Assembly: GCF_024700885.2 (NCBI RefSeq)
Contig: NZ_CP117016.1
Reading direction: 5' to 3' (one strand)
Length of the DNA stretch: 64,000 bases
Origin: Escherichia coli
Lineage (GTDB): Bacteria > Pseudomonadota > Gammaproteobacteria > Enterobacterales > Enterobacteriaceae
Positions 49,601 to 52,600 of the stretch are shown one piece after another; within the stretch, counting starts at the first letter, position 1; each line of letters begins with the position of its first letter. The position numbers are program-made.

Positions 49601-52600
49601 TGCGTGGTCAAAGAGTATCCCAGTCGGCGTTGAAAGCAGCACAATCCCAAGCGAACTGGCAATTTGAAAACCAATCAGAAAGATCGTCGACGACAGGCGC
49701 TTATCAAAGTTTGCCACGCTGTATTTGAAGACGGATATGACACAAAGTGGAACCTCAATGGCATGTAACAGCTTCACTAATGAAATAATCCAGGGGTTAA
49801 CGAACAGCGCGCAGGAAAGGATACGCAACGCCATAATCACAACACCGATAAGTAATGCATTTTTTGGCCCTACCCGATTCACAAAGAAAGGAATAATCGC
49901 CATGCACAGCGCTTCGAGTACCACCTGGAATGAGTTGAGATAACCATACAGGCGCGTTCCTACATCGTGTGATTCGAATAAACCTGCATAAAAGACAGGA
50001 AAGAATTGTTGATCAAAAATGTTATAGAAAGACCACGTCCCCACAATAAATATGACGAAAACCCAGAAGTTTCGATCCTTGAAAACTGCGATAAAATCCT
50101 CTTTTTTTACCCCTCCCGCATCCGCCGCTATGCACTGGTGATCCTTATCTTTAAAACGCATGTTGATCATCATAAATACAGCGCCAAATAGCGAGACCAA
50201 CCAGAAGTTGATATGGGGACTGATACTAAAAAATATACCGGCAAAGAACGCGCCAATAGCATAGCCAAAAGATCCCCAGGCGCGCGCTGTTCCATATTCG
50301 AAATGAAAATTTCGCGCCATTTTTTCAGTGAAGCTGTCAAGCAAACCGCAGCCCGCCAGATAACCCAGACCAAAAAAGAGCGCACCCAGAATTAGACCTA
50401 CAGAAAAATTGCTTTGCAGTAACGGTTCATAAACGTAAATCATAAACGGTCCAGTCAAGACCAGAATGAAACTCATACACCAGATGAGCGGTTTCTTCAG
50501 ACCGAGTTTATCCTGAACGATGCCGTAGAACATCATAAATAGAATGCTGGTAAACTGGTTGACCGAGTAAAGTGTACCTAATTCCGTCCCTGTTAATCCT
50601 AGATGTCCTTTCAGCCAAATAGCGTATAATGACCACCACAGCGACCAGGAAATAAAAAAGAGAAATGAGTAACTGGATGCCAAACGATAGTACGCATTTC
50701 TGAATGGAATATTCAGTGCCATAATTACCTGCCTGTCGTTAAAAAATTCACGTCCTATTTAGAGATAAGAGCGACTTCGCCGTTTACTTCTCACTATTCC
50801 AGTTCTTGTCGACATGGCAGCGCTGTCATCGCCCCTTTCGCCGTTACTGCAAGCGCTCCGCAACGTTGAGCGAGATCGATAATTTGTCGCATTTCTCTTT
50901 CATCTGTAGATAATCCCGTAGAGGACAGACCTGTGAGTAACCCGGCAACGAACGCATCTCCCGCCCCCGTGCTATCGACACAATTCACAGACATTCCAGC
51001 AAAATGGTGGACTTGTCCTCGATAACAGACCACCACCCCTTCTGCACCTTTAGTCACCAACAGCATGGCGATCTCATACTCTTTTGCCAGGGCGCATATA
51101 TCCCGATCGTTCTGTGTTTTTCCACTGATAAGTCGCCATTCTTCTTCCGAGAGCTTGACGACATCCGCCAGTTGTAGCGCCTGCCGCAAACACAAGCGGA
51201 GCAAATGCTCGTCTTGCCATAGATCTTCACGAATATTGGGATCGAAGCTGACAAAACCTCCGGCATGCCGGATCGCCGTCATCGCTGTAAATGCGCTGGT
51301 ACGCGAAGGCTCAGCAGACAACGCAATTGAACAGAGATGTAACCATTCGCCATGTCGCCAGCAGGGCAAGTCTGTCGTCTCTAAAAAAAGATCGGCACTG
51401 GGGCGGACCATAAACGTAAATGAACGTTCCCCTTGATCGTTCAGATCGACAAGCACCGTGGATGTCCGGTGCCATTCATCTTGCTTCAGATACGTGATAT
51501 CGACTCCCTCAGTTAGCAGCGTTCTTTGCATTAACGCACCAAAAGGATCATCCCCCACCCGACCTATAAACCCACTTATTCCGCCTAATCTGGCGATTCC
51601 CACCGCAACGTTAGCTGGCGCACCGCCAGGACAAGGCAGTAGCCGCCCGTCTGATTCTGGCAAGAGATCTACGACCGCGTCCCCTAAAACCCACACTTTG
51701 GCTGACATTTTTTTCCCTTAAATTCATCTGACTTACGCATAGTGATAAACCTCTTCTTCGCAAAATCGTCATGGATTTACTAAAACATGCATATTCGATC
51801 ACAAAACGTCATAGTTAACGTTAACATTTGTGATATTCATCGCATTTATGAAAGTAAGGGACTTTATTTTTATAAAAGTTAACGTTAACAATTCACCAAA
51901 TTTGCTTAACCAGGATGATAAAAATGACGCAATCTCGATTACATGCGGCGCAAAACGCACTAGCAAAACTTCACGAGCGCCGAGGTAACACTTTCTATCC
52001 CCATTTTCACCTCGCGCCTCCTGCCGGGTGGATGAACGATCCAAACGGCCTGATCTGGTTTAACGATCGTTATCACGCGTTTTATCAACATCACCCGATG
52101 AGCGAACACTGGGGGCCAATGCACTGGGGACATGCCACCAGCGACGATATGATCCACTGGCAGCATGAGCCTATTGCGCTAGCGCCAGGAGACGAGAATG
52201 ACAAAGACGGGTGTTTTTCAGGTAGTGCTGTCGATGACAATGGTGTCCTCTCACTTATCTACACCGGGCACGTCTGGCTCGATGGTGCAGGTAATGACGA
52301 TGCAATTCGCGAAGTACAATGTCTGGCTACCAGTCGGGATGGTATTCATTTCGAGAAACAGGGTGTGATCCTCACTCCACCAGAAGGAATCATGCACTTC
52401 CGCGATCCTAAAGTGTGGCGTGAAGCCGACACATGGTGGATGGTAGTCGGGGCGAAAGACCCAGGCAACACGGGGCAGATCCTGCTTTATCGCGGCAGTT
52501 CATTACGTGAATGGACTTTCGATCGCGTACTGGCCCACGCTGATGCGGGTGAAAGCTATATGTGGGAATGTCCGGACTTTTTCAGCCTTGGCGATCAGCA

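What the first reader, a model, noticed from the sequence alone, without database searches (positions are those of the whole stretch)
51709..51914. Duplicated perfect palindrome GTTAACGTTAAC in the cscK/cscA divergent promoter
Two identical 12-bp perfect palindromes lie 63 bp apart (about six helical turns) between the divergently transcribed cscKB and cscA. This is the expected operator architecture for the LacI-family repressor CscR and would allow looping-based repression of both promoters.
Basis: partly seen in the sequence, partly recalled or inferred. Interest (0 to 1): 0.35.

Follow-up and report, generated by a model that had tools for sequence, protein, structure and literature searches.

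The report
Known CscR sucrose-repressor operator pair
The two identical 12-base palindromes between cscK and cscA are real and strongly conserved, but they are the already-published binding sites of the sucrose repressor CscR in E. coli, so this is an ordinary, known regulatory element.

Summary
GTTAACGTTAAC occurs exactly twice, at 51814-51825 and 51878-51889. The copies are 64 bp apart start to start (not 63), in the 215-bp cscK/cscA intergenic region. It is the only multi-copy 12-bp palindrome in the window, and chance expectation is about 3e-6.

The operator interpretation is supported and already published. Jahreis et al. 2002, as reported in PMC11251922 and PMC3938415, described the two 12-bp inverted repeats as putative CscR operators, and operator mutations derepress csc.

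My comparisons extend this. Eight of nine CscR-homologue loci (56-79% identity), and 57 csc-linked loci found by pattern, carry the same pair at 62-67 bp, mostly 64. A CRP-like site lies 3 nt inside the distal operator. A second often lies 10 nt outside it. The pair is kept even where no divergent cscK exists, so both operators belong to one promoter module rather than one per promoter.

The looping claim is unproven. CscR ends at LacI residue 329 and lacks the LacI tetramerisation helix. Anchoring to promoter elements explains the spacing equally well.

Verdict: already known, low interest.

The parts
51814..51825 (.). Distal CscR operator (the 'cscKB operator' of the literature): perfect palindrome GTTAACGTTAAC
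   Evidence: Exact match. Invariant in 10 of 10 aligned loci from different genera. Exact with its flanks in at least 2495 of 2662 csc-positive E. coli genomes. Literature: putative operator, and a mutation in it derepresses csc.
51878..51889 (.). Proximal CscR operator (the 'cscA operator'): identical palindrome, 34 nt upstream of the cscA ATG, over the inferred cscA start site
   Evidence: Exact match. In 8 of 9 homologous loci a copy (exact in 7, one mismatch in L011) lies 23-46 nt (mostly 30-34) upstream of the first sucrose gene; Providencia L010 has no proximal copy. Exact with its flanks in at least 2510 of 2662 E. coli genomes. PMC11251922 states that the downstream operator overlaps the transcription start.
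51829..51844 (.). CRP-like site 2 (TGTGATATTCATCGCA, 9 of 10 core matches), centre 51836.5, 3 nt from the distal operator
   Evidence: The same 3-nt offset with at least 8 of 10 matches occurs in 47 of 57 csc-linked loci. The literature places a Crp site next to the cscA -35.
51788..51803 (.). CRP-like site 1 (TGCATATTCGATCACA, 7 of 10), centre 51795.5, 10 nt from the distal operator and 41 bp from site 2
   Evidence: A site with at least 8 of 10 matches lies at exactly this 10-nt gap in 34 of 57 loci, including loci without cscK. The literature reports two cAMP-Crp sites in the bidirectional promoter.
51865..51870 (+). Inferred cscA -10 element (TATTTT), giving a start near 51877-51878 and CRP site 2 at about -41.5
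   Evidence: Inference from geometry only. The consensus promoter scan found nothing, as expected for a CRP-dependent promoter. No start-site data were accessible.
51924..53357 (+). cscA, GH32 sucrose hydrolase (invertase)
50794..51708 (-). cscK, fructokinase (PfkB family)
49475..50722 (-). cscB, sucrose:H+ symporter (LacY-type MFS)
53365..54360 (-). cscR, LacI-family repressor (331 aa), the presumed binder of both palindromes

Best explanation
The two palindromes are the two operators of the LacI-family sucrose repressor CscR, inside a compact cAMP-CRP-dependent control region. The conserved order is: CRP site 1, 10 nt, distal operator, 3 nt, CRP site 2, about 33 nt of core promoter, proximal operator, about 34 nt of leader, then the first sucrose gene. 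Without inducer, a CscR dimer on the proximal operator covers the cscA start site and blocks RNA polymerase. A second dimer on the distal operator sits wedged between the two CRP sites. That position is about -58 from the cscA start and about -65 from the inferred cscK start. There it would interfere with CRP and/or with docking of the polymerase alpha C-terminal domain, turning down both divergent promoters. Sucrose (or a product of it) releases CscR. Shown: the sites, their conservation, their fixed geometry and their linkage to cscR. Published genetics: cscR loss and operator mutations derepress. Inferred: the start sites, the anti-activation step at the distal site, and any cooperation between the two dimers.
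For: The sites are exact and non-random. A LacI-family gene lies adjacent. Literature: two 12-bp inverted repeats were identified as putative CscR operators, and a mutation in one raises cscA expression. A mutation in the cscKB operator permits growth on low sucrose, cscR deletion derepresses, and two cAMP-Crp sites lie in the bidirectional promoter. In nine loci chosen through the repressor protein alone (56-79% identity), eight carry the pair at 62-64 bp just upstream of the first sucrose gene. The alignments show both 12-mers invariant while the flanks drift. A pattern scan of one genome per species gave 95 stretches with the pair. Of the 80 loci returned, 57 are csc-linked; their period is 64 (43 loci), 63 (11), 62 (1) or 67 (2), and the CRP sites sit at fixed offsets. 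The recognition-helix residues S14, M16, T17, V18, S19 and R20 are invariant among the homologues. In six aligned E. coli alleles (five sampled at 98-99% identity to the window), all SNPs fall outside the operators and the CRP cores.
Against: No direct CscR-DNA binding data (EMSA or footprint) were found in the accessible literature. Jahreis 2002 and Sabri 2013 could not be read. No start-site data were available, and the consensus promoter scan found nothing, so operator positions relative to +1 are inferred. The same 12-mer pair also occurs upstream of a hexuronate operon with a non-orthologous LacI-family regulator in Neobacillus, so the sequence alone is not specific to CscR.
Confidence: 0.88

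Rival explanations
1. Looping: CscR bound at both operators bridges them into a roughly 64-bp micro-loop, possibly helped by the CRP-induced bend between them. The loop would trap the cscA promoter and give cooperative repression of both promoters.
For: The spacing is tightly conserved near whole helical turns: 63-64 bp (6.0-6.1 turns) in 54 of 57 loci. A CRP site lies inside the would-be loop. Two operators are kept even where only one operon is regulated, which suggests that they work together.
Against: CscR's last residue aligns to LacI residue 329, so it has no counterpart of the LacI C-terminal tetramerisation helix, residues about 340-357 by established knowledge. The spacing is equally explained by each operator being anchored to a promoter element. 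Rodentibacter and Neisseria have 67 bp (6.4 turns, out of phase). A 52-bp gap would make a very tight loop. No oligomeric-state data were found.
Confidence: 0.25
2. There are two independent operators, one per divergent promoter. Each simply occludes its own promoter (the distal one for cscKB, the proximal one for cscA), with no functional coupling.
For: The literature names them the cscKB and cscA operators. A mutation in the cscKB operator is sufficient for growth on low sucrose.
Against: The same pair at the same spacing is conserved in loci with no divergent cscK (Tatumella, Pectobacterium, Cedecea, Yersinia). The distal operator lies upstream of CRP site 1 relative to cscK, at about -65 from the inferred cscK start, which is not an occluding position (inference).
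Confidence: 0.2
3. The palindromes are not CscR sites. They would be a chance repeat, tandem HpaI (GTTAAC) restriction sites, a relic of a 64-bp duplication, or sites for another regulator such as Cra.
For: GTTAAC is the HpaI site. An identical 12-mer pair serves a different LacI-family system in Bacillaceae.
Against: Chance expectation is about 3e-6. The repeat identity extends only 14 bp, so it is not a duplicated segment. Exact conservation is tied to cscR homologues across more than 50 species while the flanks diverge. Published operator mutations derepress csc.
Confidence: 0.02

Closest known systems
E. coli csc regulon control region (Jahreis et al. 2002, strain EC3132; Sabri et al. 2013 and Steen et al. 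2014, strain W)
   Same: This is the same locus. It has cscB, cscK, cscA and cscR beside the dsdX remnant and dsdA, two 12-bp inverted repeats between cscK and cscA, and Crp sites.
   Different: Nothing of substance. This window is another E. coli strain, and its 206-bp intergenic segment is 100% identical to that of strain 1190.
ScrR operators O1/O2 of the scrY promoter (pUR400 and Klebsiella; Jahreis and Lengeler 1993, as described in PMC11251922)
   Same: [quoted passage not shown]
   Different: The system is PTS-type (scrKYABR), the repeats are 14 bp and their sequence was not compared here, and the inducers are fructose and fructose-1-phosphate. I did not test whether the ScrR operators resemble GTTAACGTTAAC.
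LacI O1/O3 looping in the lac operon
   Same: A LacI-family repressor, a primary operator at the start site, an auxiliary operator upstream, and a CRP site between them.
   Different: LacI is a tetramer through a C-terminal helix that CscR lacks. lac O1-O3 are 92 bp apart and non-identical, whereas here the two sites are identical and 64 bp apart.
CytR/CRP nucleoprotein repression (deoP2, cdd, tsx-p2)
   Same: A LacI-family repressor bound between tandem CRP sites of a CRP-activated promoter. CytR was the top (sub-threshold) NCBIfam hit for CscR.
   Different: By established knowledge, CytR uses weak, degenerate sites and depends on contacts with CRP. CscR has perfect palindromic operators and a second operator at the start site. 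No CscR-CRP contact has been shown.

Membership tests
LacI-family operator | Even-length inverted repeat with a central CG, half-site of the TGnAAnC type | tested here: met
   GTTAAC|GTTAAC is a perfect 12-bp palindrome with a central CG. The cross-species flanks extend it towards ATTGTTAACGTTAACAAT.
LacI-family operator | A cognate LacI-family regulator is encoded in the same locus | tested here: met
   cscR at 53365-54360. Homologues lie next to the palindrome pair in the nine repressor-selected loci and in many of the 57 pattern-selected loci.
LacI-family operator | The site is conserved across orthologous loci while the surrounding non-coding DNA diverges | tested here: met
   Alignments A2 and A3, and the fixed geometry in 57 loci.
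LacI-family operator | The site overlaps or abuts the promoter it controls | tested here: inconclusive
   The geometry fits a class II CRP promoter with the proximal site at +1 to +12, and PMC11251922 says the same. No start-site data were seen, and the consensus scan was negative.
LacI-family operator | Direct, inducer-sensitive binding by the repressor | not testable with these tools
   No EMSA or footprint was found in the accessible papers. The genetic evidence is known only through citations.
LacI-type tetramer DNA looping | C-terminal tetramerisation helix (LacI residues about 340-357) | tested here: not met
   CscR residue 331 aligns to LacI residue 329, and LacI has 31 further residues.
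LacI-type tetramer DNA looping | Two operators in helical phase | tested here: inconclusive
   63-64 bp in 54 of 57 loci (6.0-6.1 turns), but 62 bp in one and 67 bp in two. The spacing is also explained by promoter anchoring.
CytR-like CRP-sandwich anti-activation | Repressor site located between tandem CRP sites | tested here: met
   CRP-like sites lie 10 nt to the left and 3 nt to the right of the distal operator, with centres 41 bp apart.
CytR-like CRP-sandwich anti-activation | A weak operator whose occupancy depends on protein contacts with CRP | tested here: not met
   The operators are perfect, invariant palindromes. The CRP-contact half of this feature cannot be tested with these tools.
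E. coli chromosomal csc regulon | cscB-cscK divergent from cscA, cscR convergent on cscA, at the argW/dsd hotspot | tested here: met
   (the dsdX remnant and dsdA follow cscR). (tRNA-Arg lies upstream in strain Trh52).

The most novel reading that the evidence does not exclude
The conserved module (CRP site, operator, CRP site, core promoter, operator) works as a unit. CscR dimers lack any LacI-type tetramerisation helix, yet they would cooperate across 64 bp with the help of the CRP-induced bend. Alternatively, the distal dimer would act as a CytR-like anti-activator that blocks CRP or alpha-CTD function at two divergent class II promoters at once. That would explain why two operators at a fixed spacing are retained even in loci with a single operon.
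Probability: 0.25. Interest if true: 0.4.

Novelty: already known. Interest (0 to 1): 0.12.

Why it matters
The csc regulon is what lets E. coli W and many wild strains grow on sucrose, and it is widely engineered for sucrose and molasses feedstocks. Knowing the operators explains why cscR deletion or operator mutations allow growth on low sucrose. The element itself has been described since 2002. The comparative result here is a modest refinement of that picture: a fixed CRP-operator-CRP-promoter-operator module in more than 50 species, kept regardless of whether a divergent cscK is present. It argues that both operators serve one promoter module rather than one promoter each, and it gives a clean system for testing short-range cooperation by a dimeric LacI-family repressor.

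Tried and rejected
1. Primary papers. Jahreis 2002 (DOI and PMC135337) and Sabri 2013 (PMC3553775) are not held, so the published operator and mutation data are known only through citing papers.
2. Searching the literature for the string GTTAACGTTAAC returned only unrelated primer and cloning hits.
3. The 2026 biosensor preprint uses a Pseudomonas CscR with a synthetic promoter, so it is not informative for E. coli. PMC11382391 and PMC4052901 give no CscR operator data.
4. The sigma-70 consensus scan of 51650-51980 found no promoter. The promoter positions are therefore inferred from the CRP geometry.
5. A third operator was sought upstream of cscR (autoregulation), in the cscK-cscB gap and downstream of cscB (49300-49475). 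Nothing had 3 or fewer mismatches.
6. Relic of a segmental duplication: rejected, because identity extends only 14 bp.
7. Chance: rejected.
8. About 150 csc-positive E. coli genomes did not match the 32-mer operator probes. Megablast's 28-mer word rule means a single SNP within 6 nt of either operator would hide them, so I could not tell whether any carry operator mutations.

Full report
**Observation**

The window carries GTTAACGTTAAC exactly twice, at 51814-51825 and 51878-51889, and nowhere else. Each copy is a perfect 12-bp palindrome with a central CG. The shared direct repeat is 14 bp (AGTTAACGTTAACA). The copies are 64 bp apart start to start, with 52 bp between them.

The sites lie in the AT-rich (30% GC) 215-bp gap between two divergent genes. 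One is a PfkB fructokinase gene (cscK, 50794-51708, minus strand), which is followed by a LacY-type permease gene (cscB, 49475-50722). The other is a GH32 hydrolase gene (cscA; RefSeq start ATG 51924). A LacI-family gene (cscR, 53365-54360, minus strand, 331 aa) is convergent on cscA.

This is the only 12-bp palindrome that occurs more than once in the window. The joint chance expectation for the intergenic region is about 3e-6.

**What is already published**

PMC11251922 (2024) states that Jahreis et al. (2002) identified two copies of a 12-bp inverted repeat between cscA and cscK. [quoted passage not shown] It also says the repeats flank the -35/-10 with the downstream one over the start site, that a Crp site adjoins the -35, and that the repeats are conserved in five species.

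PMC3938415 (2014) refers to the cscA and cscKB operator sites. It notes a recurrent cscKB-operator mutation that allows growth on low sucrose, derepression when cscR is lost, and two cAMP-Crp sites in the bidirectional promoter.

I could not open the primary papers, and I found no direct binding assay in the accessible literature. The finding is therefore a rediscovery of a known element.

**Independent test 1: loci chosen through the repressor**

I searched with CscR and took nine homologues at 56-79% identity, selected without reference to DNA motifs. All nine sit next to a GH32 hydrolase gene, with or without permease and kinase genes, but the gene orders differ.

Eight of the nine carry the pair at 62-64 bp (one copy in L011 has a single mismatch). 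The proximal copy lies 23-46 nt (mostly 30-34) upstream of the first sucrose gene. Providencia has a single exact copy.

The pair is present where there is no divergent cscK: Tatumella (cscA only), and Pectobacterium, Cedecea and Yersinia (a cscB-cscA operon). In Enterobacter cloacae the divergent gene is cscR itself.

The alignments show both 12-mers invariant while the flanking sequence drifts. The DNA-reading residues S14, M16, T17, V18, S19 and R20 are invariant in these proteins.

**Independent test 2: loci chosen through the DNA pattern**

I scanned one genome for each of about 100,000 species for the 12-mer, a gap of 46-56 nt, and the 12-mer again. This gave 95 stretches. My estimate of the chance expectation is about 0.01.

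Of the 80 loci returned, 57 are csc-linked by tblastn, and two further truncated Proteus loci have the same layout.

- **Period.** 64 bp in 43 loci, 63 in 11, 62 in 1, and 67 in 2 (Rodentibacter and Neisseria).
- **CRP site 2.** A CRP-like TGTGA-N6-TCACA with at least 8 of 10 matches lies exactly 3 nt inside the distal operator in 47 of 57 loci.
- **CRP site 1.** A second such site lies exactly 10 nt outside the distal operator in 34 of 57 loci.

In this window the two CRP-like sites are 51829-51844 (9 of 10 matches) and 51788-51803 (7 of 10), with centres 41 bp apart.

**E. coli population**

The 206-bp intergenic segment is found in 2662 of 5426 complete E. coli genomes. Each operator with 10-nt flanks is retained in at least 2495 (distal) and 2510 (proximal) of them. 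In six aligned E. coli alleles (five sampled at 98-99% identity to the window), every SNP falls outside the operators and the CRP cores.

Two genomes (Trh52 and CT265) carry a precise 64-bp deletion that collapses the two repeats into one copy. It removes CRP site 2 and the cscA core promoter.

**Mechanism**

The best-supported model is a conserved module: CRP site 1, distal operator, CRP site 2, core promoter, proximal operator.

If CRP site 2 sits at -41.5 (a class II arrangement), the cscA start is near 51877-51878. The -10 element is then TATTTT at 51865-51870, and the proximal operator covers +1 to +12, which gives steric repression. This agrees with the description in PMC11251922, but it remains an inference, because the consensus promoter scan was negative.

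The distal operator would then lie about -58 from the cscA start and about -65 from the inferred cscK start. That is between the CRP sites, where the polymerase alpha C-terminal domain normally docks at class II promoters. From there CscR could reduce CRP-dependent activation of both promoters. This step is also an inference.

**Looping**

CscR's last residue aligns to LacI residue 329, so CscR lacks the LacI tetramerisation helix. The conserved spacing near six turns is compatible with same-face cooperation. It is equally explained by each operator being tied to a promoter element, and 67-bp variants exist. Looping is possible but unsupported; I put it at about 0.25.

The reading "one operator per divergent promoter" is weakened by the retention of both operators in single-operon loci.

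**Verdict**

It is already known. The comparative extension is a modest refinement of the published picture. Interest is low.

Noticed in passing
L002 (E. coli O84:H7 Trh52) 3001-3151, and NZ_CP095795.1 (strain CT265); corresponds to window 51814-51877: A natural, precise 64-bp deletion between the two direct repeats leaves a single palindrome. It removes CRP site 2 and the inferred cscA core promoter. It is present in 2 of 2662 csc-positive complete genomes, and looks like repeat-mediated slippage or recombination.
   Followed up: yes
L058 (Neobacillus sp. DY30) 7050-7126; also L028, L034, L040, L044, L050, L060, L072, L073, L077, L080, L082, L096, L097: Bacillus, Neobacillus and Heyndrickxia genomes carry the identical 12-mer pair at 60-66 bp (mostly 65) with no csc genes nearby. 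In L058 the pair sits just upstream of uxaC, a LacI-family regulator (25% identical to CscR) and a mannitol-dehydrogenase-family gene. This is a hexuronate operon whose non-orthologous regulator appears to use the same core operator and the same two-site layout.
   Followed up: partly
L038 (Sorangium), L042 (Clostridiaceae), L049 (Dysgonomonas), L062 (Bacteroidales), L088 (Prevotella), L055 (Vibrio), L065 (Clostridium senegalense, tandem array): Further exact hits to the two-palindrome pattern in distant phyla, with no csc homologues in the retrieved DNA. L065 is a tandem-repeat array rather than an operator pair.
   Followed up: no
L010 (Providencia) 8495-8680: This CscR-homologue locus (58% identity) has only one exact palindrome. 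Near the expected proximal position there is a different imperfect inverted repeat (GTAACGCGTGCGTTAG).
   Followed up: no
window about 42900-49400 (L001 198-6687): Prophage-type genes (ERF recombinase, anti-RecBCD, DUF2737, torI excisionase-like, DUF4942) lie immediately beyond cscB in this strain. In strain Trh52 tRNA-Arg lies only about 440 bp from cscB. This is consistent with a prophage inserted at the argW hotspot next to the csc island.
   Followed up: partly
window 54603-54821: A truncated dsdX pseudogene (missing its N-terminus) sits directly after cscR and is followed by an intact dsdA. This is the known csc/dsd replacement junction.
   Followed up: partly
window 51915-51923: The longest cscA ORF starts at ATG 51915, but RefSeq annotates ATG 51924 (MTQSRL...), which has an AGGA about 9 nt upstream. 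Four of the five other E. coli alleles aligned have ATT instead of ATA at 51918-51920.
   Followed up: partly
window 51864: Some E. coli alleles (Res13, RL465) have T>A here, giving ACTATATTTTT just upstream of the inferred cscA -10. This might alter promoter strength.
   Followed up: no
PDB 6ndi_A: A solved 334-aa 'transcriptional regulator' matches CscR over its full length (E 1e-113). It is the closest structural template for CscR-type repressors, and its source organism was not determined here.
   Followed up: no
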